Assembly: GCF_963921235.1 (NCBI RefSeq)
Contig: NC_086097.1
Coordinates: 71,302,001 to 71,366,000, forward strand
Direction of reading: 5' to 3'
DNA: 64,000 nt
Source of the DNA: Mobula hypostoma
Lineage: Eukaryota
Positions 4,559 to 60,405 of the stretch are shown one piece after another. The stretch's first letter is position 1. Every line of letters begins with the position of its first letter. Under the pieces are notes generated by a model. That model searched no databases, was not told the DNA's origin, and saw only the letters and a program-made list of their open reading frames with translations. Position numbers and translations under genes: made by a program.

Positions 4559-5039
4559 CTCCACACAAAATGGAGGAACTCAGCAGGCCAGGCAGTGTCT
4601 ATGGAAAAGAGTGCAGTCGACGCTTTGGGCTGAGACCCTTCAGCAGGACTGGAGAAAAAAGATGAAAAGTTAATTTAAAAGCTGGGGGGAGGGGAGAGAG
4701 AAACACAAGGTGATGGGTGAAACTTGAAGGTGGGATTGGGGGGCGATGAAGTAAAGAGCTTAGAAGTTGAATGGTGAAAGAGGTGCAGGGCTGGAGAAGG
4801 GGGAGTCTGATAGGAGAGGACAAAAGGCCATAGAAGAAAGAAAAGGGGGAAGAGCACCAGAGGGAGGTGATGGGCAGGCAAGGAGATAAAGTGAGAGAGG
4901 GAAAAGGGGATGGGAAATGGTGAAGTGGGTGAGGGTGGACATTACTCTTTTCCATAGACGCTGCCTGGCCCGCTGAGTTCCTGCAGCGTTTTGTGTGTGT
5001 TGCTTGGATTTCCAGCATCCGCAGATTTCCTCTTGTTTG
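4559..5039. mobile_element. Penelope-derived non-autonomous inverted-repeat insert with degenerate hammerhead
   Basis: 4559-4612 is inverted relative to ~4945-5005. Degenerate hammerhead on the - strand at 4614-4651 (CTGCTGA...AAAG). 16-bp TSD taacataggtatgtaa (4543-4558) / taacatagatacgtaa (5040-5055). Confidence 0.85.
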
Positions 5040-5602
5040 TAACATAGATACGTAAGCAGGAAAAGAGAGCATATGGGATCTTTGCCTTCATAGGCCAGGC
5101 GTTGAATACAAAAGTAGGGACATTCTGCTGCACCTTTAACAAACACTGGCCAGGCCATAGTTGCAGTAGCATGCATGGTTCTCATTGTCACACTATTGTT
5201 AGGATGTAGTTGTGCTGGAGAGTGTGCAGCAGTGATTTGCTAACATTTTCCCTGGACTGAGGACCTTTTTATTGGGGAAAAAAGGTTGTACATTCTCAGC
5301 TTGTTTCCCCTGTAGGGAAGAAGGCTAAGTATTGACCTGACAGAGGCCTATAAAATTATGAACGACGTAGACAGGTAGATTGTCTGAATCTTTTTCACCA
5401 TTGTAGGATTATCAAAAACAAGAGGGCCTAGCTTTATGGTGAGAGTGAAGAGTGTTAAAGAGGAATTAAAGGTTCCGGTGATGTCATCGTTCAGAATGGC
5501 AGCTTAAATCAATAGCTCCTCTGGAAAAACGCATATTTTGCCCCATTAATCCATCAAATATAAGATCTTTTGAAAATATTTGAATTGATAAAGGGGGCAA
5601 GA

Positions 5603-6617: not shown

Positions 6618-7071
6618 GTTTGGCTAACTTTAAAAGTGCTGATAAACTAAATGGAGGCAAAAATAGATGGTGATATACCTATCTCGAGAAATACGTATTA
6701 TAATGTGGATTTTATATTTCTCAATTTTTAAAAATTCATTTATTCATTCCTTCTTCCCCACCTAAATGAGAATATGTACATGAGAGGAATACACAGGGAA
6801 ATCATTTCTGTGTAATGGACAGATTTTTATTTTACTTACTTTTATAGGTACAGCAACGGGGGCCCTCAACTCACAGGTAGGAGGGGCTATCCCCCACGGC
6901 TAGACTTTTCTTCTAGCTCAACCCAGGGTCATCTAGAGACCCCAGCCCTGGAATCACACCTTCGCTACCTTTTTTTTATTATTCGCATTTCTTGGCTCTT
7001 ATTTGTTCAGGGAATAGATCAATTAAGTTATATTCTGCAAATTTCAATGATATACTAGCAGATAAATATAC

Positions 7072-10000
7072 ATGGATAAGGACAAAGTAAAATTCATTTC
7101 TTTTAATGTCAATGGGCTGTTGAATTCAGTCAAGTGCAGTAAAATTCTATCAAAATTGAAAAAAGAACAAGCCCATGTAGTATATTTACAGGAAACTCAC
7201 TTAAGTGATAATGAGCATGGAAAATTAAAGAGAGTGGGCTTCACTAAGTCGTTATTCTCCTCATATAAATCAGGACATAGAAGAGGAATTGCTATTCTCA
7301 TCTCAAGCAAGCTAAATTTTGAAAAAGTATTCAAAATGGGAGATAAGGAGGGCAGATATATTCTGGTAAGGGGGAATATAGATGGAAATCCAGTTACTTT
7401 ATTAAACATATATGCACCCCCAGGAAGTGATATTAGTTTCTTCCAGAAAATTACTAATATTATGGTAACGGAAACAGAAGATCTCTTGATATGTGGGGGA
7501 GACTTAAATTTACAATTACAACCAAAGTTAGACTCTTCCAATAGAAAAACTTATGAAACAAAGTCCTTACATAAGAAAGTTAACACTCTTTTTGAGGCTG
7601 TTGGTCTAATTGATATATGGAGGGACCTTTTTCCCAACAGAAGGAATTACATTCATTATTCTGCCCCCAATTCCGTATATACAAGAATAGACTATTTCAT
7701 AACATTTGGAAAAGATAGAGCCAAATAATCACCTGAGGAATTGGGACAATAGATGTAAGTGACCATGCACCTATATATTTATCTGTTGATTTTGACCTAC
7801 AACCAAAGAATACTACTTGGAAACTAAATTCAAGTCTACTCAATGATCCCTATTTTAAGGAACAAATTAAAAAAGAAATCGGTCTTTGCTTAGAATTCAA
7901 TGATAATGAAGAGGTTTCACCTCCCATTCTATAGGATACTCTGAAGGCTGTCTTAAGAGGGAAAATTATAGCGATATAGAAAAAAATAAGGAATAAAACA
8001 TTAGAGGAATTACAAAATAAGCTGAAGGAACTAGAAAAAAACACAAATTGAGTTTGGCACAGGATACACTAGAGGAAATTTAAAAAAATTAGGAATGAAA
8101 TTAATAGTTTGGCTACACAAGAAATTAGAAAAAATTAATGTTTCTAAAGTAAAGGCACTATGAAAGTGAATCTAAATCTATGAAAATACTAGCCTGGAAA
8201 CTGAAAAAAAAGATGGCGGAAAGTACAATTCATAGAGTAAGGGATCCAAGAACAAAAGTGATATAAAATAAACTAAGTGAAATTCAAGAAGCTTTTGAAA
8301 TGTTTTACAAAACTCTATATTCCGAAGTTCCGGGGGAAGCATAACCCAAACTGACACCTTTCTGAATTCTTTAGAGTTACTCACTTTAAGCAAAGAGCAA
8401 AATAGAACGATGACTGCTGGCATAACTGAAGCTGGTCTAAAAACTGCAATTAGTAGACTTAAATTAAGCAAGTCACCAAGATCAGATGGATATACAGCAG
8501 AGTGGTACAAAGAGTTTAGAAGTGAATTAATTCCTGTTTTACCCCCACACTGAACTGAGCCCTAAGGAAGGCGCAAATGCCACCCAGCTGGAAGGAGGCG
8601 ATAATCTCAGCTGTACTGAAAGAAGGCAAGGATAAAATGGAATGTGGGTCATTTAGACCAATATCTGTTCTTAATGTGGATTATAGAATATTTACCTTCA
8701 TCATGGCCAAATGATTAGAAGAGTTTCTACCCACACTGATACATAATGATCAGACAGGTTTTATACGACAACGCCAAACACAAGACAATATACGAAGGAC
8801 ACTTAACATTATGGATCATATAAAAAAAATGAAATTGAAGCAATAGTGATAAGCGTGGACGCTGAAAAGGCATTTGATTTGGTTAATTGGAATTTTCTTT
8901 ACAGAGTTTTACATAGATTTGGTCTACATGACACAATTATTAAAACTATACAGGCACTATATGGCAATCCTACTGCCAGGATTAAAATCAATGGATATTT
9001 ATCTAATAGTTTTACCCTAGAAAGGGACACAAGACAAGGTTGTGCATGGTCACCGTACTCTTTGCATTATATCTGGAACCATTAGCTCAGTACATCAGAC
9101 AAAATGAAGATATCAGGGGAATTACTATTAAAGGGACAGAGCATAAGTTGGCCTGTTACGCGGATGACATTTTGATTTATCTCGGGCAACCAATATACTC
9201 TTTACCTAAATTGATGCAATCCTTTGAACAAAATGACCAATTATCAAGATACAAGATCAACATAGGTAAAACCCAACTACTTTTATATAGCTATAGCCCA
9301 CCAAGAGAAATTGAAAGTAGATATCCTTGGGCATAGCAAACAGAGTCCATCAAATATCAATTATCAGCCTATATATAAAAAAATTAAGGAAGATATAACA
9401 AGATGTAACCTAATTCCTTTTCTTGGTCTTAGTTGAAGGATTGAATCTATTAAAATGAATGTACTGCCCAGACTACTATATCTCTTTCAGACCTTACCAG
9501 TAGGGATTAACCAAAATCAATTCAATGAATAGAACAACATGCTATCAAGATATATATGGCAAGGTAAAAGGCCTAGGGTTCATCTCAAAACTTTGCAATT
9601 AGCCAAGGAAAAGGGGGGATGGGGCCTACCTTCTCTTAGAGATTATTACTTTGCAACACAATTGAGAGCTGTGATATGCTGGTATGCTGGTGCAACTCAT
9701 CATGTGATGCACAATGGAAAAACATTGAGGAGAGGATATTTTCCATCCCCATACAGGCAATTTTGGCTGATAACAACCTACAAAGTTACATAAATAATAT
9801 TGACAACCTGTGGATGAAATGGACTCTTAAAATATGGAAGACTATTATAAAAGAATATAAACTAGAGAGAGACATTGCAGTTCTTAAATGGTGTGCATAA
9901 GACACGGATTTTACGTTGAATAAACTGGATGCTAGATTTAAGGACTGGACAGCTAAAGGAACAACAGCTATTCGCAATATAATGAAAGAAGGAACACTGT

Positions 10001-10830
10001 TCAGTTTTGAAATGCTCAAAGAGAAACACTTATTAGAAAAACAAGACTTTTACTGGTATTTACAGATGCGACAGTATGTTAATAGGACGGTTAAAAATGT
10101 AATCAAGGCAAGTACATGTCTGATAGAGCTACTTAGAAAAGCATATAATTCAGACAACGGTAGTAGAATAATTTCAAGCGTGTATAAGGGTTTGTCAAAA
10201 CACATTCGACTTTATACATTAAAACAAAATGGGAGAAGGAAGGAGGGATAATAATATCTGAGGAAGACTGGACAATAATATGGAGGTATCAATGGAAGTG
10301 TACCAGTTCACAGAAATGGAGGGAGTTCAGGTGGAAAAACTTGATAAGATATTTTCTTACACCCTCTCAGAAATCCCATTATGATAGTACCCCCCCACTT
10401 GATGGAGAAATGGCGGAAATCAAAATGCAAACCATTATCATATTTTCTGGGAATGCCCTGTTATCAAAGACTATTGGAGTGGGATACATAATGCCCTACA
10501 AGACATCTTTAAATGTGAAATACCCATAGAGAGTAAGACCATATATTTTGGGTATATACCTCAAGAATGGTTGAAAAGAGATAAATATTTAATGAATGTA
10601 CTGCTGATGGCTGGTAAAAAGGCCCTTACCAGGAAATGGTTATCACAGGAGAGCCCAACTTTAAATGTATGGATGGAAATTACAATGGAAATTTACAAAA
10701 TGGAGAAGATAGCAGCATCTGTTAATCATAAGTTGGAACAGTTTTATTTATACTGGAAAATATGGTTGAACTACATAACACCTCATAGGCCTGATTTTAT
10801 TCTCACAAGTCAATGGATATGTTGTAAAGA
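7072..10830 (+). pseudogene. L1 ORF2 (APE endonuclease, RT, Cys-rich C-terminus) with many stops and frameshifts
   Basis: [46 protein letters not shown] at 9157-9168; GGWGLPSL; decayed HIFWECP near 10440. Confidence 0.93.
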
Positions 10831-11229
10831 AAAATCACTCCCTACTCTGTACATAGTTTTCTTCTTTCAATTGTTCTTTCTTTCCTCTCCTTTCTATAAG
10901 TGTATACCTCAGATAAATATTATGTGGAGATTTGTGACAAATATGATTATATGATATATATGTACAGTATCTGAAATACATCTTATGAAAATGTTTGTTT
11001 GATGATAAAATACAATAAAAAATAAATTACAAAGAAAATTAAAGAGGAATTAAGGGGAAAATGGTTATGGCTCATATCTCTAATGCACTGCCAGAGTAGG
11101 TGGTGGAATTAGATACAGAATTAGTTTAAAAGGCACTTAGACGGACACTTAAATAGGTAAACATAGAGGGATATAGGCCTAATGTGGGAAAATAGGGCAA
11201 GAATTTGGGGGAAAAAGGTTGACATAGAT

Positions 11230-12424: not shown

Positions 12425-14175
12425 ACATAGATGAGCTGGGCTGAAGGGTCTGTTTCTAAGCTGGACAACTCTATAATTCTCTGTACTTAAAGATTCTTCT
12501 TTTATGCTACACAATAGAAAAATCTTGCAGAATTTAAAAATAATAATATTTCTTGTCTCTTTTCTCTTTTACTCTAATTCCAGTTATTCTTTACTGCCAT
12601 TTCTATTTCTGTACCTACCTGTTAAGATGTTGTTCACTCAATCTAATCTATCTGTTATTTGAGCTCTTTCTCCATTTTCCTCTCAATGCGTTCATTGCAT
12701 GTTAAAGAGGCTAGAAAAATAGTCACTCTTTTATTCAATATTATGCAATTTAGACCTAATTTTCCCTCCAATCAGAAAGGTGGATGACAATTTCATTTTC
12801 TGTCTCTCTGGGAGTTCAACCAAGCACTTCTGGGACACTCAGCTTTGTGCAGCTGGCATGGCTTCTATGCCAATACATTTAGGAAGATATCATCTGCTCT
12901 GTAAAGTGTCTTCTGGAGTATTATGGGGGAAACTAGACTTAATTGTCTCAGTAATGGCCATCGTTGGTCACTCCCAGAAGAACCATGTTTGAAGATATAA
13001 TGCAACTTGAGACCGTCCAACACTGCAACGATTCTCCTTGCTGACACTGATCACAACAATCACCAAGATCCAGGCCTTGATTCCCATTGTGGATTTGATG
13101 CTTCTCTGATGTCCTGGTTCAAATTTATGATTCTCCCAACACTACAAATCCTGGTCTTTTCCAAATCTCCAAGACCCTTCCATTTCTCCAAGACTCCTCC
13201 AATTCTACAAATCACCCAAACTCCTGATCCATCCAAGAATTCCCAGTTTGCCCTGACCCCAGGTTCCAAACCTCCTAGAGCCACCACACATCCTGAACAC
13301 ATTCCCTTGTCCTTCCTAAAGAATTTCTTCATGTGCCCAGCCACAGATCTTCTTCTGTGAACTCACCTATAGGTCCTAATCACTATACTGCATCTGCTAG
13401 ACCATCATACTTCAACTGCCAAACTCTATCCCCAAGCCTGACTTTGGTCTGAGTACCACATCTTCAATTATTGTGCAAGAACTTTGGAGTGGGGTGTCAT
13501 GATCAACATGACTGTTAATGGCTCCAGTGTTATCAATGGGCAAAGCCAATTTCTTGATCAATTTAAAGGCTTTAAAGTGCACAATCATATTTAAATGGCT
13601 ATATTGCAAAATGCTTCACATATGCAAAACTTCAGTTTCTCAAGGAACCTTGAAACGTAAATGAATTTATAAGAGTGAGTACAGCACTTATGTATAAATT
13701 GATTTAATTCCTAATTGAATTAAATTCACAAGTACCTTGTTATTGCAGAGTAGATAAAAATGACTTACTGAAATATTCTCATGTATACCTCATAGTTTTG
13801 AATTTCAAGAAAGGAAATTTGAAATTATGATGTTTAATTGATAGCTTTTTTATATGATTGGCAAACGTGCCTGTTCCACACCTTCCCCATATTTATTAGA
13901 TCTTCTTCACAGGATTAAGTTAATTTAGTTCTGTTTATTGCAGTGAGTTGCAGCTGACTAAAGATACAGATTTATTGCTGTTATAGCTTTTATACAAGGC
14001 AAATTTTGCAAAAATTTATTAATCAGAAGCTGCATGCTACACTTGCACAATAAAACGGCCTTACATCAATCTGAGGTGCCAAAATACAATTCCAATCGTA
14101 TTTGTATTATCTATTTCTGACTGTTTTTATTTTTAGGTACTACTCTCTAATGGATAAATGCTTATCCATACAATA

Positions 14176-16740
14176 AACACAAAATGCTAGAGGATCTTGG
14201 CAAATCAGGCAGCATCTATGGAGGGGAATAAACAGATAAGTCGGGCCAAGACCCTTTATCAGGACAGGAAAGGAATGGAGCAGAAGCCAGAATAAGAAGG
14301 TGAGGAAGAGGGATGGGGTACAAGCTGACAGGCGATAGGTGAGACTGGTGAAGGGGAATGAAGTAAGAAGCTGGAAGGCAATAGGTAGAAGAGATAAAGG
14401 GCTAAAGGAGAAGGAATCTGGTAGGAGAGGACAGTGGCCAATGGAAGGAAGGGAAGGAGGAAGGGCACCAGAGGGAGATCATAGACAGGTGAGGAGAAGA
14501 GGAATAAGAGGGGAACCAGAATGGTAAAAAGAGAGAAATGCGGGAGGGGGGGATGGAGAGAAGAGAAGTTACTGGAAATTAGAATATCAGGTGATGCGCC
14601 TCCAACTTGATTATGGCCTCATCACGACAGTAGACGGTGGGCCATGGAAACCTAGACCTCTATACCTCCGTCTTCAACTGGATCCTTGACTTTCTCATCA
14701 GGAGACCACAGTGAGTGTGGATTGCATGCTTAGCCTACTGATCAACTCTCTCTACATCCATGACTGTGAGGCTAGGCAAAGCTTAAGTGCCATCTATCAA
14801 TTTGCCAATGGCACAATTGTTGTTGGTGAAATCTCAGATGGTAACAAGAAGGTGTACAGGAGTGAGATAGATCAGCTGGTTGAGTTGTCTTGTAACAACA
14901 ACCTTGTCTCAACATCAGTAAGACCAAGGAATTGACTGTGGACTTCAGGAAGGGTAAATTGAGGGATCAGCACAGTGGAATGAGTGTCAACATCTCTGAA
15001 AACTATTCCGGGCCGAACATACTGATGTAATTGCAAAGAAGGCACATCAGTTGCTATATTTCATTTCACCAAAGACTAGCAAATTTCTACAGAGGTATTA
15101 TGGAGATCTGGTATGGAGGGATCACTGCCTGGATCGGAAAAAGGTTGGAAACTCAGCCAGCTCCATCATGGGCACTATCCTTCCCAGTATCGAGGACATC
15201 TCCAAAAGGTGATGCTCAAAAATGCGGCATCCGTCATTAAGGACCCCCATCACCCAGAACATGCCCTCTTCTCATTACTACTATCAGGAGGATGTACAGG
15301 TGCCCGAAGACACACACTCAATGTTTCAGGAACAGCTTCTTCCCCACCTCATTAGATTTTTGAATGGACAATAAGCCAATGAATCCATGAATCCTAACTG
15401 ATAATTCTTTTGTGCAGTGGATGCTTTTTTGTTTTCATGTACAGTATACCCAATAAAGTGGCCACTGAGTGCATGCGTGAATGTAGGAGGTATCATCAGT
15501 TAGTTTATACGTATGTATAATATATAATATATTTATTTACACACCCACATGCTCACACACATACAGCATATATATACTTACTGTTATTGTCTTTTTGTGG
15601 AATTATGGTGAGATGTTCAATTTCATTTATTGTTACATTTTAGATTGGGTTATACAGTTGTTCGTTTGTATGTTTGTGGGTCACCTTGACTGTAATTGGG
15701 ATGGGTAATAGTCACCACCCCCGTCTGTATGTGGGTTGGTTCTCATGGAATGAAGTTGCTCTGTCTGCTATTGTGCTTGTCACAGTCAAACTAACAGTTG
15801 AGATAAATGAGCTCTTCTCATTTGTCATCGTGGACCGAATGCTCACCCCTATATATATATAAAAAATAAAAACTTTAATGTACTGCTGCCACCAAACAAT
15901 AAATGTCACAGCATATGTTGGCAATATTTAGCCTCTTCCTGATTCTGATTCTGATGTTGAAATGGGAATGGGAAGTCAAATTGAAATGGGTGGCAACAGG
16001 GAGATCATGAGTTTTCAATGGATGGAGCAAAGCTGCTTGACAAAGCAGTCCCTCAGTCTACGCCGGGTCTCAGCGAAGTAGAGGAGGCCACACTGGGAGC
16101 ATCAGATACAATAGATATCCCTGACAGATTGGCAGGGGAGGTGTTGCCTTACCTGGAAGGGGGGTTTGGGGCCCTCAGCGGTGGTGAGGGTGGTGCAGGA
16201 GCAGGAGATGCATTGGCAGGAGTGCCAGGAGGGATGAGTGGATTGAGGAATCACATAGAGAACCATCCCTATGGAAAGCGGAGATGGGGGTAGGGGAGGG
16301 AAAGATGTGCTTAGCGGTCGGACGCTCAGATGGTCATAGTTACAGAGAATGATGCTCTGGATATGTTAAGGGAACCCTATCTCTATTATGGCGGTAGGAG
16401 GCTGGGGTGAGGACAGGTGTATGGGAAATCAAGGAGATGCGGATGAGTGAAGTATTGATGATGCCCCCTTGTTCTTTGAAAAATGATGAAATCCGATACG
16501 TTCTAGAACAGAAAGCCTCATCCTGAGAACAGATGTAGCAGAGACCAGGTACTGAGAAAAAGGAGTAGCACTTTGACAGGTGTCAGATTGGGTAGAGGTA
16601 TAGTCAAGATAACCTTGAGAGTCAGTAGGTCTGTATAAGATATTAGTAGAAATCTAGAGTTAGAGGAATTGAGAAAAGGGGAAGAGGTGTCAAGAGATGG
16701 ATCAAGTTATTTTGAGGGCAGTGTGGAAGCTGGAGGCAGT
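14176..16740 (-). mobile_element. Decayed Penelope-like element (GIY-YIG region and 3' terminal repeat), interrupted at ~14650-15955
   Basis: The - strand at ~16063-16119 translates DIYCI*CSQCGLLYFAETR (GIY-YIG motif). 14176-14270 is the terminal repeat shared with the hammerhead inserts (decayed core near 14240-14270). Confidence 0.8.
14650..15955 (+). mobile_element. Rex1/Babar-type LINE fragment with secondary inserts
   Basis: NWILDFL, IYQFANGTIVVGEISDG, IKDPHHPEHALFSLL; ends in (GATTCT)n at ~15941-15955. Confidence 0.8.
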
Positions 16741-17263
16741 CTCCAACATCAGGTTCTGTTTTTGCTGATTTTACAAAATTTAAACTAAAAATGTTTTTTT
16801 AGCTGCTGAGTCCACTGAAGCCAATGTTTTATACATCTTAAAATCCACTTCAATTGTCTTAAATATAAATCGAAAAACCCAGAAAGTTGGACAGCATTTA
16901 TGAAGAGAAAAGTAGAGTTAACTTTTCAGGTAAATAATTTTCTGTTAATTCAGTTTTTCTTCAAATTTCAAAGTAAATTTATTATCAAAGTATGTATGTA
17001 TATGTTACTATATAGCACCCTGAGATTCATTTTCTTACAGGCATTTACAGGACAAAAAGACAGAGGTTAATGAAAAATGATATATGACATACACCAATCT
17101 GCAAAGGTGACAAGCTATACAAATAAAAATATTAATGCTGTTATCCAAGCTGTTATCCAGCTCAGTGCTTCTCATTGTTCTCCTTCCTGGCACTTATTCC
17201 TGCAACTCACATCAAAGTTGCTGGTGAACGCAGCAGGCGAGGCAGCATCTCTAGGAAGAGGCG

Positions 17264-17301
17264 CAGTCGACGTTTCAGGCCGAGACCCTTCGTCAGGACT
17301 A
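17264..17301 (-). ncRNA. Minimal type I hammerhead ribozyme motif
   Basis: The - strand reads UAGUC-CUGACGA-A-GGGU-CUCG-GCCU-GAAA-C-GUC-GACUG: complete core, stem I UAGUC/GACUG, stem II GGGU/GCCU, palindromic ACGU stem III, GUC cleavage triplet. Confidence 0.85.
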
Positions 17302-17926
17302 ACTGAAGGAAGAGTGAGTAAGAGATTTGAAAGTGGGAGGGGGAGGGGGAGATCCAAAATGATAGGAGAAGACAGGAGGGGGAGGGATGGAGCCAAGAGC
17401 TGGACAGGTGATTGACAAAAGGGATATGAGAGGATCATGGGACAGGAGGTCCGGGGAGAAAGAAAAGGGGGGGGGAACCCAGAGGATGGGCAAGGGGTAT
17501 ATTCAGAGGGACAGAGGGAGAAAAAGGAGAGTGAGAAAAAAAATGTGTGTATAAAAATATACACCTTATATTCCGTCTGGGTAGCCTCCAACCTGATGGC
17601 ATGAACATCGACTTCTCTAACTTCCGCTAAAGCCCCACCTCCCCCTCGTACCCCATCCGTTATTTATTTTTATACACACATTCTTTCTCTCACTCTCCTT
17701 TTTCTCCCTCTGTCCCTCTGACTATACCCCTTGCCCATCCTCTGAGTTCCCCCCCCAACCCTTGTCTTTCTCCCCGGACCTCCCGTCCCATGATCCTCTC
17801 ATATCCCTTTTGCCAAGCACCTGTCCAGCTCTTGGCTTCATCCCTCCCCCTCCTGTCTTCTCCTATCACTTTGTATCTCCCCCTCCCCCTCCCACTTTCA
17901 AATCCCTTACTCACTCTTCCTGCAGT

Positions 17927-17964
17927 TAGTCCTGACGAAGGGTCTCAGCCTGAAACGTCGACTG
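17927..17964 (+). ncRNA. Minimal type I hammerhead ribozyme motif
   Basis: TAGTC CTGACGA A GGGT CTCA GCCT GAAA C GTC GACTG; predicted cleavage after 17959. Confidence 0.85.
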
Positions 17965-20879
17965 TACCTCTTCCCAGAGATGCTGCCTGGCCTGCTGCGT
18001 TCACCAGCAACTTTGATGTATGTTGCTTGAATTTCCAGCATCTGCAGAATTCCTGTTGTTTACTTATTCCTGCAGCTTTTTTGCTTACTATTGAACTTAT
18101 TTGAAGTCATCTCATTGCTAAAATGCCTGAAAAAGAATTTTTGAGGAACATGTCAATAATCTGAGTCCATTTTAATGACCTTAATATTTAAAGTTTCATT
18201 GTTTTGCAGGCTGTCAAGTAAGACCTGACAGAGAAGGATCAAGGAGAGACTTTGTGCTGATGTCTGACAATACTATGCCCTTGCACGAACTCAGGGAAAA
18301 ACCAGGCTTATCTGCTGTTACTCTTTAACTTTGCAATAAACATTTCTTTAACAGGCCACAGTAAGTGACTTCTCATTCTGATTTGAAACTCTGCACTTCA
18401 ACACATCTGCTCCATCAGCATGAAAAGCAAATAAGTATGTACTGTATCAGGCTCTATTCCAGTCAATGAATATTTTATAACTGAAAAGTGTATAAGCTGG
18501 ATATGATGCAAAATTAACTATCACTTGCTGAAGCAAAGTTTATAGAACTTTCTGTGACTTGCCATTTCATTTCAAAGTAGTTTGCCCTGTTTCTGTGAGA
18601 ATCAAATATGGAACTGATTTAGAAGACATCTGTGGTGCAATCTTTTGTTGTTTCGTTCAACACTCAAAACAAAAGCACTGATCAGTGTTCATTCTTACCT
18701 GCTGAATTCCTTTCCTCTTTGCTTTGTTTTCCAACTGAATAATTTAGCCTTTTTCTAACTAAAGTTTCTTAAGAAAAAACTCAGGTAAGGATGTGCTGCT
18801 AAGTGTCAATAGACCAATATCATCCAGTGTTCATTTGTCTGTACGTGTTTGGAACAATATTTGTTCATTGTGTGTAGATTAAAGCATAGTGACACTAAAT
18901 ACTCTCCACAAACTTGATTCACATATGGGAAATAAGTACCTATTCAGTGGCTCTTTCATTTGTGTAGGCTCTCAAATAACCAAATTAGATATGATTTTGA
19001 TGAAACACATGCTGATGAAAGTAAAACTCCCATAACATAAGGTTGTTTTTGGACGAGGTGTAGTATTAAATTTCAAATCGTTAGTTAGTGTTTGTTATAC
19101 CTCTAAGCTGACAGCCGAGGTGAAGAAACACTTTTGTTTAAAATTGAGCGGAATTGAATGTTATATGGAACAAATTGATTGCTTAGACTTAATTTCCCCT
19201 TTTTTGAAAAATCGCTCAATACTCTGTTCCTTGCAGATTTTGGTGAAGTTTGACCAAAAAGGAGAATTATGAGTGACAGCAGTTTGGATGCATACAATTT
19301 CATATATAGGCTTCAGTTTGCGGAGACATTGGAGCATCAGCTGATCATGATGCACCTGTAATCATGCTCCTTTAACATTTATGATGAAACAAAATTGCAA
19401 TTTATCTGCAATACATGATGATAAACCTCAACAAGTCAACTGTGGAGTTTATAATATTTGAGCAGCATGGTTAACAACCAGGAAAACGAAGATTATTGTG
19501 AAGTACATTATAGTAAAAACAAAGACAATGCTATTTACTTAAATTTTAGATAAGTAAACTTAATATGAAAATGCACTAATTGGTAAGAAAGGGTAATACA
19601 TCTCAAAGCTTATTGCTTGTAAATGATACTAAAGCATGCAATAACATATACATTATGACATCTCTTATGAAGTGCTGCATGTGGGGACTGGAACTACAAA
19701 ACGTAAAGCAATATAACTTGTGGAAATGCAATTTTTCAGCTTGTTGATTTAAATTTTATGGTATCATACTATAGTTTTTGTGCTTCTTACAAATCCTGTT
19801 AATTTGCCAAACATGTCTCTCATCTTGCATTGCATCATGACAGATTTCTATAGCCTGTCTTTTAATAAGTAATACCTTCCTTGCTAATTTACGTCAAATC
19901 ATTTCAAAGTAAAAGCAGCTGCAGCAAAGAGAAAATAGTGAAGGTGTTAACTAAAAGTTCAGCAAAGAGATGAATTTAAAAGAGGCTTTTAAAGGCGATA
20001 TAGGAAACCAAGCTCGAGAGCATTGGTTAGCAAAATGGCTACTGGCTTAATTCATTTTCAACAACTGACAAAAATGCCTTCTGACCTGCTGAGTTTTTCT
20101 AGAGTCTGCCCCGTCAAGGTTCCACTATCTGATATTGTTCTGATTGCAATGCACAATTCTTTATTATCAGTGAGAAGGAAAGCAGGGAATTACAAAAGAC
20201 TAAATTCAGAATAAAAGATTTCCAGAGAAAGTGATTATAGGCCTGGAACAGGCTAGACCGATGAATAACTTGAAGATAATAATGTTGGTCTCCCATGTGT
20301 AGGATGCAATGATGGGCCTGTAACAAATTTGCCCTGTTGGGGAAAAGTGTGAATGAGAAGTTTATGAAGAGTTGAGGATATACATGTAGGACCAACAGAA
20401 GAGCATTGGAGCAATTACAGTTAAGGAATTACACGCAGGTTAAGATGAGTGAAGGAAAATAATATTGTGAGATTGGAAGGAGAAAGTATGAAAGATAAAG
20501 TGATAATGGGATTAGAAGATCAGTTTGATTTCAAACAAGGCACAGAAGTGAGAAGACTAAGAGTAACACTATTAGCGGAAAATAAGCCACTTGACACTAC
20601 TCAGTGTGCTCACTTTATCATTCAGGCTAACATTTTTGTTAAAAGTACCAAATGTAGGAAATATTGCCTAAATGGAAACTAACAAACCATAAGAAAACTT
20701 GAGAACCAGAAACAGAATCACATTTATCATTACAATATGAGTTGTCATCAAATTTGATGCCTTGGAAAAGCTGTACTGTGCACACATAAAATTACTATGA
20801 TGGCACCAAGATGTATTCTCTGTGGAGATTGTGGCTGAGACTCGATTGTTCATTAAGTTCGTAGGAATGGTTTTGGGGA

Positions 20880-21939: not shown

Positions 21940-24900
21940 TTAAATATTCTTGTTTCAGCCTGATACAGCAAAAAAACACAGCTCCTTCCGAAGTCAGTAC
22001 AGTCACCAAAGATGTCTTAATCAATTTAAACAAACTATCGCTGCTTAAAACTGATGGAAACAACTCAGATTGTGGACGGAAGCACCCATGGAGGAAGCGT
22101 GGCTGTAGATTAGGGTTACAAGTGCGTTTAAGGAAACGGGTTTTTAAACTCCCAATACCGACTATCTTGCTGGCAAACGTGCAGTCTCTGGTGAATAAAA
22201 TCGATGATCTCAGAGCTGGGAAAAAAAGGGACATTAGGACCGTGTGCGTCCATTGTTTCATGGAATCCTGGTTAACCACTTCCGTACCGAACGCAGCGAT
22301 TCAGATGGATGGGTTTACTATACACAGTCAGGGTAGATCTATAGAGTCTCTCAAAAGCAGAGGTGGAGGAGTATGCCTCATGATCAACTCTTCTAAGTCC
22401 TTAAATATATCAGTGCTGTCCCAATTCTGCTCACCAGACCTGCAATATCTAGCAGTTAAGTGCCGTCCTTTTTACGTACCATGGGAGTTCTCCAGGGGTC
22501 ATTTTTGTAGCAGTATACATTCCACGTCAGGCCAAAGTCAATCAGGCTTCAGATGATCTGAGCAATGGGATCAACATGCATGAAACAGCGCATCCTAACA
22601 CCTCCACCATTGTATTGGGAAATTTTAACTAGGCCAGCCTGAAAAAAATCACTAAGCAATATGCTGATGTAAATCTAGTCAAGAAGAAAAAAAGAGCTTA
22701 CAAAAGGTTCGAAGAACTAGGTAATGATAGAGATGTAGAAGATTATAAAGCTAGCAAGAAGGAGCTTAAGAAAGAAATTAGGAGAGCCAGAAGGAGCTAT
22801 GAGAAGGCCTCGGTGGACAAGATTAAGGAAAACCCCAAGGCATTCTACAAGTATGTAAAGAGCAAGAGGATAAGACCTGAGAGAATAGGACCAATCAAGT
22901 GTGACAGTGGAAAAATGTGTATGGAAACAGAGGAGATAGCAGAGGTACTTAATGAGTACTTTGCTTCAGTATTCACTACAGAAAAGGATCTTGGCAATTG
23001 TAGGGATGACTTACAGCAGACTGAAAAGCTTGAGCATGTAGATATTAAGAAAGAAGATGTGCTGGAGCTCTTGGAAAGCATCAAGTTGGATAAGTCACTA
23101 GGACCAGATGAGATATAGCTCAAGCTACTGTGGGAGGCAAGGGAGGAGATTGCTGAGCCTCTGGCGATGATCTTTGCACCATCAATGGGGACGGGAGAGG
23201 TTCCGGAGGATTGGAAGTTTACGGATGTTGTTCCATTATTCAAGAAAGGGAGTAGAGATAACCCAGGAAATCACAGACCAGTGAGTCTTACTTCAGTGGT
23301 TGGCAAGCTGATGGAGAAGATCCTGAGAGGCAGGACTTATGAATATTTGGAGAGGCATAATATGATTAGGAATAGTCAGCATGACTTTGTGAGAGGCAGG
23401 TCGTGCCTTACAAGACTGACTGAATTTTTTGAGGATGTGACTAAACACATTGATGAAGGTAGAGTGGTAGATGTAGTGTATATGGATTTCAGCAAGGTAT
23501 TTGACAAGGTGCCCTATGCAAGTAAGGAAGCATGGGATCCAAAGGGATATTGCTTTGTGGATCTAGAACTGGCTTCCCACAGAAGGCAAAGAGTGGTTGT
23601 AGATGGGTCATATTCTATATGGAGCTTGGTCACCAGTGGTGTGCCTCAGGGATCTGTTCTGGGACGTCTACTCTTCTTGATTTTTATAAATGACCTGGAT
23701 GAGGAAGTAGAGAGATGGGTTAGTAAATTTTCTGATGACACAAAGGTTGAAGGTGTTGTGGATAGTGTGGAGAGCTGTTAGAGGTTACAGCGGGACATCG
23801 ATAAGATGCAAAACTGGGCTGAGAAGTGGCAGATGGAGTTCAACCCAGATAAGTGTGAGGTGGTTCATTTTGGTAGGTCAAATATGATTGCAGAATATAG
23901 TATTAATGGTAAGACTTTTGGCAGTGTGGAGGATCAGAGGGATCTTGGGCCTGTGTCCATAGGACACTCAAAGCTGCTGCATGGGTTTACTCTGTGGTTA
24001 AGAAGGCATACGGTGCATTGGCCTTCATCAATCGTGGGATTGAGTTTAGGAGAGGAGGGGTGATGTTGCAGCTATATAGGACCCTGGTCAGACCCCACTT
24101 GGAGTACTGTGCTCAGTTCTGGTCGCCTCACTCTAGGAAGGATGTGAAAACTATAGAAAGGGTGCAGAGGAGATTTACAAGGATGTTGCCTGGATTGGGG
24201 AGCATGCCTTATGAGAATAGGTTGTGTGAACTCAGCTTTTTTTCCTTGGAGCGATGGAGGATGAGAGGTGACCTGATAAAGGTGTATAAGATGATGAGAG
24301 GCATTGATCATGTGGATAGTCAGAGGCTTCTTCCCAGGGCTGGAGTGGCTAGCATGAGAGGGCACAGTTTTAAGGTGCTTGGAAGTAGGTACAGAGGAGA
24401 TGTCAGGGGCAAGTTTTTACACAGAGAGTGATGAGTGACTGGAATGGGCTGCTGGTGACAGTGGTGGAGGTGGATACAATAGGGTCTTTTAAGAGACTCC
24501 TGGATAGGTACATGGAACTCAGAAAAATAGGCTATGGAGAACCCTAGGTAATTTCTAAGGTAAGGACATGTTTGGCACATCTTTGTGGGCCGAAAGGCCT
24601 GTATTGTGCTGTAGGTTTTCTATGTTTCTAATTACCATCAACAGATCACTTACAATACCAGAGGAAACAACACACTGGACCTTTGCTACACCACCATCAA
24701 GAATGACTACTGTGCTATTCCACACCCTCACTTCGGGAAGTCTGATGACCTGGCTGTATTTCTACTCCCTGAGTATAGGCAGAGACTGAAGACTGCAGCA
24801 CCAGTAGTGAGGGCCAGGAATGTATGGGCAAGGGAATCACAGGAGCGCCTACAGGACTGCTTTGAATCGGTAGACTGGACTGTATTCAGGGATTCATCTT

Positions 24901-53610: not shown

Positions 53611-56074
53611 TTTGCTATTCTCTGTTCATTTCAAAATTCACTGAATTTTGGAAGTTGATGATCAGAACATTAATTAACAACATTGTCACTACTTTCAAAA
53701 GTTCGGAATGTAGATCATCAAGTCCTTGGGATTTTCAGCTTTCACGGTCATTAACTTCTCCAGTAGTAGTTTTTTTTGTAATCTACTCTAATTTCTTTTA
53801 CTTGATCACTTGCATCGAATACTAGATTCACTAGTTGCTTCTTTTGTGCCTTCATTTTCCTACTTCCCTTTTTAAATTCCTCCATCTTAGTCTGTAACAA
53901 CCCACATTTACTTTCACCGGTCTTCTTCATTCTGGTTATCTATTGAACCTCTTGCAGTTTTTTTTTCTGCTAGTTTATTCTCATAATCCATTTTCCCTAT
54001 CCTTCATAGATCTCTTGGTCATCCTTTGTTGAATTCTAACGTGTACAAACCTCAAACCTGTTACTTTTGTATGATATCTTTGTCTTGGACTTAACACCAG
54101 CTAACTTTTGTTATCTACAGATGAATCATTTTTCCTATGGTCTTTGTTGAAAATCATGTATTGTTTTCCAAATGCCACCCATTGCCTGTCCATTCTCATA
54201 TCCTTTGGTTGAGTTGCCAGTCTACCCCAGCCAACTTATACCTAAACCCTTCATAGTGTCCTTTGTTTAGTTTGAATCAGATTGATCTGCATGACTTTTA
54301 TTTTAATGTGAAATTCTATCTTATTCTGGTCATTCAGCAGAGGAACTGGCAAAGGTGAGATTTTAATTAGAGCATATGGACAGGAAAGGTTTACTGAATG
54401 CAGACAAATGAAACCAGTTCAGGAAGGCACTTTGGATGGCATGGATGAATTAGACCAAAGGGCCTGTGTCTGTGATGTATAATTCTGTAACTCTAGGACC
54501 TCTCTCCAACTAGTTTATTAATTATTAATCACAATTTTCTTATTACACAGCTTGAGGTTTAAAACAGCCTGTTCTCTCACCAGTTACTCAATTACTGGTC
54601 TACAAATCCATATCACATACTTTACAGACTTCATTCCCTACATTGTTGGACGTAATTTAATTCACCCCAGTCTATATGGAAATTGAAGTCCCTTAAGATT
54701 ACCATACCCTCTGCCCGTACATCTCATTTCTCTACTTAAAACCGTACCTTTTTTACTGCTATTACTCAGAGGCCTATGAACAACTCCCATTACTAATTTA
54801 TTCCCTCTGCTGCTTCATGGCTCCATTCAAACTGATCCTAATTCTACACCACAATCTGCCAAGCAAGCAGTCTTTCTACTACCTAGCATCATCCATCATT
54901 AGCATTGCTGTACCATCTCCTTGTCCTTTTTACCTATCCTGCATAAATGTGGAATGCCCTCCAAGATTTAGTCCCCGGCTCTGGTTACCCTGCAGCCAAA
55001 TAGTTTACAGCTATTTACCACTATTTGTATTGTTAACTTGTCTACCATTTTGCAGATGCAGCAGATCAGTATAAATGTTGCCTTTAAAAACGTCCTTCAC
55101 AAATGTTCCATGCTCTAAGGCTATTTTCTGCTATCATTCATTGTTTCCAGTACTTGTTCCTCATTTGTTTCTTCAAACTGTGGTTTATCATCAGTTTTAT
55201 TTTGCATGTTACATAGTGATTTTTCACTATATAAACAGCCACCGGTGATTTGATTGGAAGTTTTAGGGACTGAAATTGGTGGTGGTTGAGGTTGGTGAAG
55301 CAGGTAGGAAGTGACAAGGAGAAGGAAGAAGAGGGCCCTACATAGGATGGAATATCCACCGGGGATAATAAAGGACCACTTCATCAGCATTAAAGGAGGA
55401 ATCATTCAGATGATTATTGTATGTGGTATCCTAACTTCATATGCAAAGCTGACTAAAATTTTGGTGAACATGGAGGAATATTGATTTATCAGTTGAGGGA
55501 AAACAACAAGCAGCATCAGGAAAGTGCACCTTTGCCTGCATTTGTTTTGGTTGCTTGAGACTTTAGTGGGGTTGAAGTCAATGTAGAAGGGTCTCAAGCC
55601 CAGCTCTTTTCACCAGTAAAGCATTAAGTTGCCTCCTCAAGTGAGTCTGTATTGACATCAAAATTGTGATGGATGAATCTGCCAATGTTGGTTGTAAGGA
55701 TGATCGCTGTTGCTTGATTAATCTGTGGGACAGTTTCATTAATCCACCAATATTCATAGCAAGGATTTTGCAAGGTCAAATGTTCACTTGAAGGTGACTG
55801 CATGCCAGCATTAGGTTGATGCTTGATGGTCTCCATTTAGTTTCATTCTTATTGCATTTCAATGGAATTATTTTCATACAATTGACTTGTTTGATAATTT
55901 ATTTCAAAGAAGAGTTAAGAGTCAACTACAATATTTAGAATTACTAATGCATGTGTTTATAGTACTCACAAAAAAACTTCTATTTTAGCTTGGTTACATT
56001 ATTTGATTGCATTTACTTGGTTACATTCTTGGTTTTAAATAGTTGGTGGTGCTTTAACTTGGCAGTATTACCTT

Positions 56075-56790
56075 GGGGCAGCATGGTAGTGTCACACTGA
56101 AATACTTGTAAAGACCAACTGCAGAAGTATTGAGGCCATGATCACCCAGTGCCAGCTGCAGTGGCTGGGGCACATGATAAGGATGCCCCCATGTCGGCTA
56201 CACCGCAGAGTGTTATACGGCCAGCTACATCATGGTCGACACTCAGCTGGAAGGCCGAAGAAGTGCTATAAGGATCAGATGAGGAATGCTTTAAGGAAGT
56301 GCAAGATTAGACCCGACGACCTGGGGGATGTTGCTGCTGACTGTACCTCTTGGCAACAGCTGTGTAGGGACAGGGTTCATATTCTGGAGATGGAAAAAAC
56401 AACCAGAAGACAGCAGAAGAAAGCCAGGAGATATGCAGCCATGGTTGCCACCGCTACCACATATACATGTCCCACCTGCAATAGAGCTTGTGGGTCCAGG
56501 ATAGGACTGTATAGTCATCAAAGATCTCACCGTTAAAGGAGTGGACATCATCATCGGATTTTGATGGATGACTGAAGAAGAAGAAGAGTGGTTGTGTAAT
56601 GCTAACATGGGTTCATTTCCCGCTGCTGTCTGTAAGGAGCTTATACGCTCTCCCTGTAACCCTGGAGGGGTTTTTCCTCCCAGTGTTTCGTTTTCATCCC
56701 ATATTCCAAAGACATACAGGTTAGTAGATGTGACTGGGCAGTATGTGCTCATTGGCCCAGAAGGGCCTGTTACTCTGCTGTGTCCCTAAA
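56075..56790 (+). mobile_element. tRNA-derived SINE interrupted in its A box by an RTE fragment
   Basis: Rejoins as ggggcagcatggtagtgt|agtggtt (A box). B-box-like ggttcatttccc near 56610, central atcccatattccaaagacatacaggttag, CR1-type tail gaagggcctgttactctgctgt. Confidence 0.75.
56093..56586 (+). mobile_element. RTE-clade LINE 3' fragment with C2H2 zinc finger and (GAA)n tail
   Basis: QLQWLGHMIRM...VLYGQL...GRPKKCYKD...YTCPTCNRACGSRIGLYSHQRSH*; tail gaagaagaagaag. Confidence 0.9.
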
Positions 56791-57861: not shown

Positions 57862-59175
57862 AGACCAGAAGACCAGAAAACAGAAATAGACTATTTGGTC
57901 CATCAAGTCTGTTCTGCTATTCAATCATGGCTTGTTTATTTCCATCTAACCCCCATTCTCCTGACTTCCCCCTGTAACCTTTAACACCCATGCTAACCAA
58001 GAACCTATCAACCTCCATTTAAATATACTCAATGACTTAGATATTTAAATATACCCAATGACTTCCACAGATTCACCACTCGCTGGCGAAAGAATTTTTT
58101 TCCTCATCTCTGTTCTAAATGAAGAACCTTCTATTCTGAGGCTGTGCCCTCTGCTCCAAGATTATCCGACTTCTGGAAATATCCTCCCCACATCCACTTT
58201 ATCTAGGCCTTCCAATATTCAATATGTTTCAATTGAATCTCCCCTTATTCTTCTAAGACCCAGGAAATACAAGTCCAGAGCCATTAAACACTCCTTGTGC
58301 ATAAACCCTTTCATTCCCCAAATCATTCCGGTGGACCTCCTCTGGACACTCGTCAAAGCCAGTACATCCTTCCTTTGCTAGGGGGGCCCAATTCAAATGC
58401 AGTCTAACCAATTCCTTATTATACCTCAGCAATTATATTCTAAGTCTCTCAAATTAATGAATACTAACATTGAATTTGTTTTACTTATCACCCATGCAAT
58501 CTGCTAGTTAACGTTCAGAAATTCCTCCACTAAGACTCCCGTGCCACTTTGCACCTCTGATTTCTAAATTTTCTCCCTCTTTAGAAAACAGTCCACGCTC
58601 TTATTCCTTCTAACAAAGTGCATGACCATACACATCCCTACACTGTATTTCATCTGCCCCCTCTTTGCTCATTCGCCTAATCTGTCCAAGTCCTTCTGCA
58701 GATTCCTTTCTTCCTCAGCACTAGCTGTCCCTCCTCCTATCTCTGTATCATCTATATACTTGTTCACAAAACTATCAACAGTGTTATCTCAAACAACAGG
58801 AATTCTGCAGATGCTGGAAATTCAAGCAACATACATCAAAGTTGCTGGTGAACGCAGCAGGCCAAGCAGCATCTATAGGAAGAGGCGCAGTCATTAGCAC
58901 ATAACACGAGAAGTAGTGGACCCAGCACAACATCTGTGGAACACTGCAAGTCACTGACAGCCAACAAGAAAAGCCCCCCCTTTATTTCTGTTCCTTGCTT
59001 TCTGCCAGTCAGCCAATCATCTCTCTATGTTAGTATTTCTCCTATAATACCATAGGTTTTTATTCATGTGTGGCACCTTTTCAAAAGTCTTCTGAAAATC
59101 GAAATAAACATCCATTGATTCTCCTTTGTCTGTCCTGCCTGTTATTTCCTCAAAGAATTCCAACGGGTTAATCAG
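57862..59175 (-). mobile_element. Decayed CR1 LINE with a Penelope insert at 58791-58892
   Basis: - strand INPLEFFEEIT...MDVYFDFQKTFEKVPH; CR1 3' UTR at 57862-57960. Confidence 0.85.
58791..58892 (-). mobile_element. ~100-bp Penelope-derived insert equal to the hammerhead 3' cleavage product
   Basis: Nearly identical to 53471-53572; similarity stops at ...gcgcagtc. Confidence 0.88.
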
Positions 59176-60205
59176 AATGAAGTGCAAAATTCTGGATATA
59201 TTGGACTCTGAACTCATGAGCAAGACAAATGTAGCCACAGCTGTAATCAATAAAAATGATAAAGCAATGAATGAAAATTTTAAAAATGCTCCAATCATTC
59301 ACAGTATTGTTGCGATTGATCCATCTGACTTTCTAGTCAATGGTGACTCCTGGAGTGTTGACCTTGGGAGATATGTCATTGAAAATTTGAATGGAGGAAA
59401 ATATGCCTACACAATCTTTTAATTGGGAAGGTCATTGCTGAGAAACAAGCTGCACTTATATTAATAGCTACTTATAGTCCCATCCTTGGATGTTGTCCAT
59501 ATCTTTTGCTTCACTATCTTGGAATTGTCAATGGAGCTGAACAATCTGTAAACAATTTGACTGAGGTTTTAAAAGGATCATTACTCAAAGTAATTCAAAT
59601 TCAAGATTTGAAGATTTGATGAAGTTAAACAAATTTTTGCAGGAATTTACTAAATCGTATACTGAAAGAAAAACAGAATAAGTGATATAACTTCTATTTC
59701 CAAAAGTTGGATAAATTCATATCTTGGCTATAGGACTAGTTTCCAGAATCCCAAACAAATGACAAATTCAGAGGCAAAAACATGAAATCAACACCAGCCA
59801 AAAAAAAACACAGCAATTAAAATCCATTAAACAAATACTTTTGGAATTGAAATGTAGTCTTGATAATGGCTTCAGTTACCATGGAACCACTGGTTTGGTG
59901 TAAGAGCCTTTTTGGTCCAACTGCCCTTAATGGAAAGAAATCTGCATTTCTTTCCCATTGCAACCCCTATGCAACTCTAAGTTGGCTTCTAACTACCTTT
60001 TCAAATAACACAGGGATTCAAAGGATGATGGAGTTTGAATTATAAATGTTATCCACAACTGATAAGTCAAAATAAAAGCATATAAGAGATTTGTTCCAAT
60101 GGCACTTAGATTAAATGCCAGCATTTATAATGTGCTGAATGTCAAGAGCAGGTATTATGAAGAAATGGACTGCCAAATCCAACTAGTGATGTTTCATAGA
60201 CATCA

Positions 60206-60405
60206 AAAGCAACACATACAAAATGCTGGAGGAACTCAGCAGACCAAGCAGCATCTGTGGAAAAGAGTAAACAGTCAACGTTTTGGGCTGAGACCATTCA
60301 TTGAGACGCTTTTCCATAGATGCTGTCTGGCCTGCTGAGTTTCTCCAGCATTTTGGGTGCGTTGCTTTGGATTTCCAGCGTCTGTGGATGTTCTCATGTT
60401 TGTGA
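60206..60405. mobile_element. Penelope-derived inverted-repeat insert with degenerate hammerhead
   Basis: 60206-60265 is inverted against ~60309-60370; decayed core on the - strand at 60272-60307. Confidence 0.8.

What the first reader, a model, noticed from the sequence alone, without database searches (positions are those of the whole stretch)
58791..58892. Insert whose 5' end coincides with the predicted hammerhead cleavage site
Seen: this - strand copy begins GACTGCGCCTC..., exactly the sequence 3' of the GUC triplet in the intact copies, and runs to the common terminus. Inference: it is a retrocopy of a self-cleaved RNA, i.e. fossil evidence that the ribozyme worked in vivo and set the template's 5' end. 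Caveats: the last two bases (tc) could belong to the host CR1 (microhomology), no clear TSD is visible, and it is a single copy.
Basis: partly seen in the sequence, partly recalled or inferred. Interest (0 to 1): 0.7.

Follow-up and report, generated by a model that had tools for sequence, protein, structure and literature searches.

The report
Short Penelope retrocopy near ribozyme cut
A 102-base scrap of a Penelope-type jumping gene does begin where the element's tiny self-cutting RNA should cut, but other copies most often begin 32 bases earlier, so this one copy is an ordinary truncated insertion that neither proves nor excludes cutting in the living animal.

Summary
58791-58892 (minus strand) is a young copy of the 3' end of a Penelope-like element (1 difference in 102 from a sibling), sitting in an old CR1-type LINE. 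It starts at the base after the GUC of a minimal hammerhead. But its first two bases (GA) and last three (TTT) also fit the host, and it has no target-site duplication, unlike two siblings (12-13 nt). The population test was partly possible: in contigs of two runs, the strongest internal 5' loose-end peak shown lies 32 nt upstream of the cut, at the ribozyme's first base (236 and 304 contigs, part from another subfamily). The cut was not among the top six rows per run (under 184 and 173; mean about 10), so a minor peak is not excluded. One of about 11 arms in the window starts at the cut; microhomology-guided truncation hits it about 1 time in 7. Best reading: chance truncation (0.55) over cleaved template (0.38). 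Side result: the -32 site may be a capped transcription start (extra G in 2 of 2 joints with letters shown). Known class; modest interest.

The parts
58791..58892 (-). The insert: last 102 nt of a Penelope-like element (from predicted cut +1 to the common 3' terminus, including the ~30-nt tail)
   Evidence: 1 difference in 102 to 53471-53572
58891..58892 (-). GA shared by element (+1,+2) and host LINE: 5' microhomology, junction ambiguous over +1..+3
   Evidence: empty-site alignment to paralog 44580-44871
58790..58793 (-). TTT(G) shared by element 3' end and host: 3' microhomology; no target-site duplication
   Evidence: element continues with G in many copies per loose-end consensus behind 18061
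58500..59200 (-). Host: decayed CR1-type LINE reverse-transcriptase region interrupted by the insert
53471..53605 (-). Closest sibling: 135-nt copy that starts at -33/-32 (first base of the ribozyme), with 13-nt target-site duplication and 5-nt filler; carries the whole minimal hammerhead (53605-53568), cut between 53573 and 53572
17558..18061 (+). Long direct arm of a head-to-head insertion: ORF end (17556-17630), pyrimidine-rich spacer, hammerhead (17927-17964, cut 17959|17960), 3' terminus; used as reference
17928..17928 (+). Position -32 (A of AGTCC): population 5' junction hotspot, candidate transcription start
   Evidence: loose ends 236 (X1) and 304 (X2); joints with an extra G; fits YYANWYY (recalled consensus), but so do 10 sites in 500 nt
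17196..17559 (-). Inverted arm of the same insertion: 5' end at -295, lacks the last ~29 nt (tail); whole unit framed by a 12-13-nt duplication
4562..5040 (.). Older-subfamily head-to-head insertion; direct arm starts about +7 to +10 at a short microhomology
   Evidence: offset read by eye
60202..60403 (.). Older-subfamily fold-back; arms start about -23 and +9 to +12
   Evidence: offsets read by eye
47508..47660 (.). Decayed fold-back; arms start about -10 and -12
   Evidence: offsets read by eye
14164..14640 (-). Decayed long copy of the older subfamily; its sequence upstream of the ribozyme matches the loose-end consensus at 17928
   Evidence: 27 of 30 letters

Best explanation
The insert is an ordinary, strongly 5'-truncated retrocopy of a high-copy Penelope-like element (PLE) of what looks like a cartilaginous-fish genome (organism from my recall and earlier AI notes). 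Steps: (1) the element's protein nicked an AT-rich spot in an old LINE (inferred from PLE biochemistry, PMC11167929); (2) reverse transcription began at the element's usual internal 3' terminus, pairing TTT(G) with the target (terminus shown; pairing inferred); (3) after about 100 nt the cDNA was joined to the other host end through a 2-nt GA match, without a duplication (microhomology and missing TSD shown; mechanism inferred; precedent in PMC3846280). The GA happens to be the first two bases after the hammerhead cut. The template was most likely an uncut RNA; the family's preferred short 5' end is the ribozyme's first base (-32), probably a capped transcription start (hotspot shown; cap inferred from 2 extra Gs).
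For: Junction ambiguity and no TSD, while siblings have 12-13-nt TSDs. 7 GA/TGA partners in 105 nt, so about 1 in 7 under microhomology-guided truncation. 1 of about 11 arms in the window starts at +1..+3; others at -402, -295, -33, -23, about -12, -10, +7, +9 and two far upstream; cut not in the top six loose-end rows of either run, while 17928 (-32) has 236 and 304 contigs with flank agreement 0.42 and 0.39, like the true 3' terminus (0.42, 0.43) and unlike the subfamily or reference-edge rows (0.61-0.69); 0 of 25 distinct joints shown land at 17958-17972, 5 at 17928/9 (3 after dropping one likely subfamily indel and one with a microhomology). Depth ratio across the cut 0.94 and 0.97, across -32 3.6 and 2.5. 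The source ribozyme is weak on paper: G10.1-U11.1 in all three young copies, active dimer -11.5 against -30.3 kcal/mol for the best dimer fold. In the anole PLE, ribozyme mutants insert normally in vitro and no RNA-seq reads begin or end at the cut (PMC11167929).
Against: The match is exact: the next upstream bases of element (GTC) and host (AAT) differ, so the junction interval begins precisely at +1. One search showed 12 of 1202 loose-end rows and warned that some were not counted; the bound at the cut (<184, <173) is 15-19 times the mean per place (about 10-11) and not clearly below my estimate of true junctions at -32 (128-145 and 189-207). Depth ratios are confounded by older subfamilies that join at 17928 and leave at 17965. 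Joint counts of 3:0 to 5:0 are small. The anole ribozyme does cut when the protein is present. An unchecked AI note reports a second locus in this genome that starts exactly at the cut and has a TSD (e1-7790562).
Confidence: 0.55

Rival explanations
1. One reading: the template was the 3' product of hammerhead self-cleavage (5'-OH at GACUG). Reverse transcription, started internally 102 nt downstream, ran off the cut end, and the GA match merely helped second-strand joining. Such inserts would be a minor run-off class beside the capped 134-nt class.
For: Exact start at +1. Same layout as the anole PLE, where RT starts about 85-92 nt downstream of the cut (my subtraction) and the ribozyme cuts with protein help. 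Precedent in other retroelements: R2/HDV (abstract start, PMC3774820) and Perere-3/twister with TSDs next to the cut (PMC8501958). The -32 peak suggests that RT does run to RNA ends in this family. Second locus in AI note e1-7790562 (not checked).
Against: No row at the cut among the top loose ends, 0 of 25 joints shown, no depth step; no TSD to fix the junction; about 1 in 7 chance under microhomology; non-canonical G-U at 10.1-11.1 and unfavoured dimer fold; two hits in 209 scanned windows of a very high-copy family are expected by chance (inference).
Confidence: 0.38
2. A longer, TSD-flanked insertion was later shortened by a microhomology-mediated deletion (or repair) that removed the upstream duplication and the ribozyme.
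For: Siblings have TSDs and this copy has none; GA microhomology at the join; such deletions are reported for PLE copies (PMC3846280).
Against: The host reads through with no loss or gain beyond one base against its paralog, so the deletion would have had to start exactly at the edge of the duplication; the copy is young (1 difference in 102).
Confidence: 0.07

Closest known systems
5'-truncated insertions of endonuclease-bearing Penelope-like elements (PMC8557442 passages; PMC3846280 passages; anole Poseidon PAc, PMC11167929 parts 1-2 of 4)
   Same: Strong 5' truncation, head-to-head arms, optional ~30-nt tail, TSDs in most copies, a TSD-less copy joined by microhomology (Pen2_Av), hammerhead about 90-100 nt upstream of the RT start.
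   Different: Here a sharp 5' hotspot sits at the ribozyme's first base; none of the passages I read describes one. The RT/endonuclease ORF of this family was not seen beyond 24 residues.
Minimal type-I hammerheads of metazoan PLEs (Cervera and de la Pena 2014, PMC4209133 parts 1-2 of 4)
   Same: CUGANGA and GAAA boxes, short helix I, extra base between 9 and 10.1, palindromic loop-less helix III that needs a dimer.
   Different: G10.1-U11.1 instead of the conserved G-C in the three young window copies; helix II of 4 pairs with two wobbles; the insert itself holds only the 3' strand of helix I.
Retroelements whose 5' end is set by a ribozyme: R2/HDV-like (PMC3774820, listing and start of abstract) and Perere-3/twister variant (PMC8501958, passages)
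   Same: Copy begins at the first base after the predicted cut.
   Different: There the cut defines the standard full-length 5' end, with TSDs adjacent; here it is 1 of about 11 arms, has no TSD, and is not the top population peak.

Membership tests
Penelope-like element | ORF with RT and GIY-YIG endonuclease | tested here: inconclusive
   Only 24 residues of ORF end in the window; Pfam 0 families; too short for the homolog search. Likeness to a PLE C-terminus is recalled.
Penelope-like element | Hammerhead motif in the terminal (pLTR) region | tested here: met
   Descriptor scan: 5 hits in 64 kb, 4 in this family; Rfam gathering scan found 0.
Penelope-like element | Head-to-head inverted, 5'-truncated arms | tested here: met
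   17196-18061, 4562-5040, 60202-60403, 47508-47660; not in the insert itself.
Penelope-like element | Optional 30-40-nt tail at one end | tested here: met
   Inverted arms stop 29 and 33 nt short of the terminus that direct arms reach.
Penelope-like element | Target-site duplication | tested here: inconclusive
   13 nt and 12-13 nt in two siblings, none in the insert; TSD-less copies are reported.
Minimal PLE hammerhead | CUGANGA, GAAA, NUH, helix I of 4-5 pairs, extra base after A9, palindromic 15.2-16.2 | tested here: met
   Three young copies, 5 helix-I pairs.
Minimal PLE hammerhead | G10.1-C11.1 pair | tested here: not met
   U11.1 in 3 of 3 young window copies; C in 37% and 31% of contig depth.
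Minimal PLE hammerhead | Self-cleavage as a dimer | not testable with these tools
   Computed active dimer -11.5 against best dimer fold -30.3 kcal/mol; says nothing on protein-assisted cleavage.
Retroelement with ribozyme-defined 5' end (R2, Perere-3 type) | 5' junctions of copies pile up at the cut as the main class | tested here: not met
   Cut absent from top six loose-end rows in 2 of 2 informative runs; peak at -32. Reference-based and truncated output.
Retroelement with ribozyme-defined 5' end (R2, Perere-3 type) | A smaller but significant excess at the cut | tested here: inconclusive
   Bound <184 and <173 against a mean of about 10-11.
Retroelement with ribozyme-defined 5' end (R2, Perere-3 type) | TSD directly next to the cut | tested here: not met
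   No TSD in this copy.
Non-LTR retrozyme | Tandem head-to-tail units each with a hammerhead | tested here: not met
   No two same-strand adjacent hammerheads among the 5 descriptor hits in the window; definition from bioRxiv 10.64898/2026.07.22.740005.

The most novel reading that the evidence does not exclude
This PLE's transcript starts, capped, at the first base of its hammerhead, 32 nt before the cut, and reverse transcription starts internally only 102 nt after the cut. Short genomic copies would then be run-off products of two RNA states: 134-nt copies (capped, uncut, often with an extra G) and 102-nt copies (cut, no G), with tail-less versions about 30-40 nt shorter. Their ratio across many thousands of copies would be a fossil read-out of how often a minimal PLE hammerhead cuts in the germ line, which is an open question.
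Probability: 0.33. Interest if true: 0.62.

Novelty: new member of a known kind. Interest (0 to 1): 0.3.

Why it matters
The role of PLE hammerheads in vivo is stated as unclear (PMC8557442 passage; PMC4209133), and the one biochemical study found cutting dispensable in vitro and no reads at the cut (PMC11167929). A real excess of genomic 5' ends at the cut would be direct evidence that cut RNA is used as template, and this very high-copy family makes the count easy on an assembly. The single copy does not supply that evidence. The -32 hotspot, if it is a capped start, would place the ribozyme at the very 5' end of the RNA, where cutting would remove the cap.

Tried and rejected
Whole genome: not held, so no genome-wide junction count. 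Rfam at gathering threshold: 0 matches. Monomer folds of 4 ribozyme copies: z -0.8, -0.5, +0.8, -1.6, uninformative. Exact-pattern scans for more copies: 2 loci in metagenome contigs, 1 in genome contigs, 0 in viral contigs; L001 and L002 are the same prokaryote-like coding sequence with a 35-nt chance likeness, L003 matches over 24 nt only. Raw-read runs X21 and X22: 0 reads laid, no test. No RNA holder on record was listed; no RNA run was laid. Protein proof of PLE identity: peptide too short for the homolog search, no Pfam hit. Splicing as the cause of the -32 peak (the AG follows a pyrimidine tract, and in D. virilis an intron ends at helix I): in the five joints into 17928/9 the reference letters after the upstream side do not begin with GT and the AG is kept, so not supported, but splicing from unknown upstream exons was not tested. 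Joint 17853>17928 was dropped as a likely subfamily length difference and 17625>17928 discounted for a TTCC match. The initiator match alone was judged weak (10 sites in 500 nt). Look-up of earlier findings by sequence and by words returned nothing. Lunse et al. (PMC5785218) and the Terminon paper (PMC5850863) are not held and may bear on prior reports; figure S2 of PMC11167929 (genomic and RNA-seq ends) could not be seen (one search found no text hits in 3 files).

Full report
Observation. The minus strand from 58892 to 58791 is a 102-nt piece that matches 53572-53471 with 1 difference and 17960-18061 with 5. In those longer copies it follows ...GAAACGTC and runs to a shared 3' terminus ...TGTTGTTT. 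A descriptor scan gave 5 hits in the window, 4 of them in this repeat family, each with a 5-pair helix I. The young copies read TAGTC CTGACGA AGGGTCTC(G/A)GCCT GAAA C GTC | GACTG: a minimal type-I hammerhead as defined in PMC4209133 (parts 1-2 of 4 read), with the cut after GUC. So the insert does begin at cut +1. Rfam found nothing at gathering score.

What the element is. The long copy carries an ORF end (24 residues, stop at 17628-17630), a pyrimidine-rich spacer, the ribozyme and the terminus. Four loci are head-to-head arms, two inverted arms stop 29 and 33 nt short of the terminus, and two young siblings have duplications of 13 and 12-13 nt. These are the published marks of endonuclease-bearing Penelope-like elements (PMC8557442 and PMC3846280, passages). 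The RT/GIY-YIG protein was not demonstrated; that the peptide looks like a PLE C-terminus, and that the host is a ray or shark, rests on my recall and on earlier AI notes. In the anole element PAc the cut lies 26 nt into the ORF and RT starts internally at 111-118, so about 85-92 nt downstream (PMC11167929, parts 1-2 of 4); here it is 102 nt.

The junctions of this copy. The host is a decayed LINE RT region with one paralog spanning the site in the window (44580-44871; its frame hits RVT_1). Of 20 ways to split the junctions, the best gives GA and TTT to the host (score 321 against 310 for neither). So the host read AATGA-TTTG, the element shares GA at its 5' end and TTT(G) at its 3' end, the 5' junction is +1, +2 or +3, and there is no duplication. 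A TSD-less PLE copy joined by microhomology is already described (Pen2_Av). The host end has 7 GA/TGA partners in the first 105 nt of the element, one at +1: about 1 in 7 if truncation follows microhomology.

Other copies in the window. About 11 arms could be placed (offsets of old copies read by eye): -402, -295, -33, -23, about -12, about -10, +1, about +7, about +9, and two that reach the ORF end. One of 11 is at the cut. The chance that 1 of the 7 short arms covers +1 is 0.18-0.35.

Population test. No genome was held and collection scans gave only chance hits. I laid four runs on 17562-18110 (cut at 17959|17960). Two raw-read runs laid nothing. Two contig runs of two organisms laid 136,160 and 149,871 contigs, 5,842 and 6,799 of them partly. 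The tool showed 12 of 1,202 loose-end rows and warned that some were not counted. Positive control: the 3' terminus 18061 gave 249 and 309 contigs with mixed flanks (agreement 0.42, 0.43). Rows at 17563-17568, 17624 and 17965 have one shared continuation (agreement 0.61-0.69): the reference edge and other subfamilies. The remaining row is 17928, 32 nt before the cut: 236 and 304 contigs, agreement 0.42 and 0.39. Its consensus matches the older subfamily at 14255-14310 in 27 of 30 letters, so part of the peak is subfamily difference; a rough mixture estimate leaves 128-145 and 189-207 contigs with unrelated flanks, against a mean of about 10-11 per place and side. The window's own 53605 copy starts there too, with a TSD. 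No row lies at 17958-17964, so each such place has fewer than 184 (X1) and 173 (X2). Of 25 distinct joints shown (tables 5 and 5c; 118 and 160 rows not shown), 5 enter at 17928/9 and none at 17958-17972; I dropped one as a likely subfamily indel and discounted one with a TTCC match, leaving 3:0. Depth at single positions changes 0.94- and 0.97-fold across the cut and 3.6- and 2.5-fold across -32, but subfamilies enter at 17928 and leave at 17965, so this is weak. Conclusion: the cut is not the leading internal 5' end among the rows shown; a minor peak of up to 15-19 times the mean is not excluded.

The -32 site. Both joints into 17928 whose in-between letters were listed carry one G that neither side of the reference supplies. 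Untemplated 5' G is attributed to copying of the cap in L1 and SVA (PMC3287187 passages). The site fits the initiator consensus (recalled), but so do 10 sites in 500 nt. PLE promoters are internal, with an initiator (PMC2377424 passages). I therefore infer, on thin evidence, a capped start at the ribozyme's first base. The alternative that the AG is a splice acceptor (as for the D. virilis intron that ends at helix I) found no support in the five joints but is not excluded.

Could the ribozyme cut? All three young copies have G10.1-U11.1 instead of the conserved G-C; C makes up 37% and 31% of contig depth. The active dimer costs much against the best dimer fold (-11.5 against -30.3 kcal/mol). 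The anole ribozyme cuts only with its protein, its mutants insert normally in vitro, and no RNA-seq read began or ended at the cut. Cutting is thus possible but not needed.

Weighing. If even a few percent of short inserts come from cut RNA, an exact +1 start is good evidence for this copy; if none do, it is a 1-in-7 to 1-in-35 accident picked out from thousands of arms seen across 209 windows (inference; window count). Earlier AI notes, which I could not check, are split: one more locus starts at the cut with a TSD (e1-7790562), while two others put near-cut starts down to microhomology or chance (e1-7809460, e1-7808107). I give 0.55 to chance truncation of an uncut template, 0.38 to a cleaved template, 0.07 to later deletion.

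Known and new. 5' ends set by ribozymes are known for R2 (listing and start of abstract) and Perere-3 (passages). For PLEs I found no report of genomic 5' ends piling up at the cut or at the ribozyme's first base in searches (the last gave 0 papers) and the passages read, including a review (PMC6765202), PMC7229834 and a 2026 preprint (parts 1-2 of 5). Two relevant papers are not held and figure S2 of PMC11167929 was not visible, so prior report cannot be ruled out. Verdict: real observation, known class, interpretation unproven; the lasting value is a cheap, decisive count on an assembly and the unexpected -32 hotspot.

Noticed in passing
window 17928 and 53604-53605: Population 5' junction hotspot at the first base of the ribozyme (-32), with an extra G in 2 of 2 joints whose letters were shown; candidate capped transcription start.
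   Followed up: partly
window 18030-18031: 3 of 25 distinct joints shown enter at the start of the ~30-nt tail, suggesting template jumps or pauses at the second initiation site.
   Followed up: no
window 17951 (and 53581, 17279): The young subfamily appears to spread with U at ribozyme position 11.1 (C in only 31-37% of depth), a departure from the conserved G-C pair.
   Followed up: partly
window 53606-53623: The 5' junction of the 135-nt copy has a 5-nt filler that repeats the start of the target duplication, as if the cDNA end briefly copied the target before joining.
   Followed up: no
window 17854-17927: The young subfamily seems to have about 74 nt more than the older one just upstream of the ribozyme (joint 17853>17928 in both runs; sequence likeness).
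   Followed up: partly
window 4940, 60309: Direct arms of two old fold-backs start 7-12 nt downstream of the cut at short microhomologies; could be trimmed run-off products or chance.
   Followed up: partly
window 5765-10954: Long LINE-1-like remnant: ORF1-like frame at 5765-6574 (recalled likeness), endonuclease frame 7066-7728 (Pfam Exo_endo_phos), C-terminal frame at 10403-10954.
   Followed up: no
window 1182-3165, 22671-24630, 44171-45331, 24615-26413, 34291-34899, 56090-56536: Dense decayed LINE fragments of several kinds (CR1-, Rex/L2- and RTE-like by recall); no host exon was recognised among frames of 130 aa or more.
   Followed up: no
L001 591-623, L002 601-633: A prokaryote-like coding sequence shares 33 of 35 letters with the element's tail region; judged chance.
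   Followed up: yes
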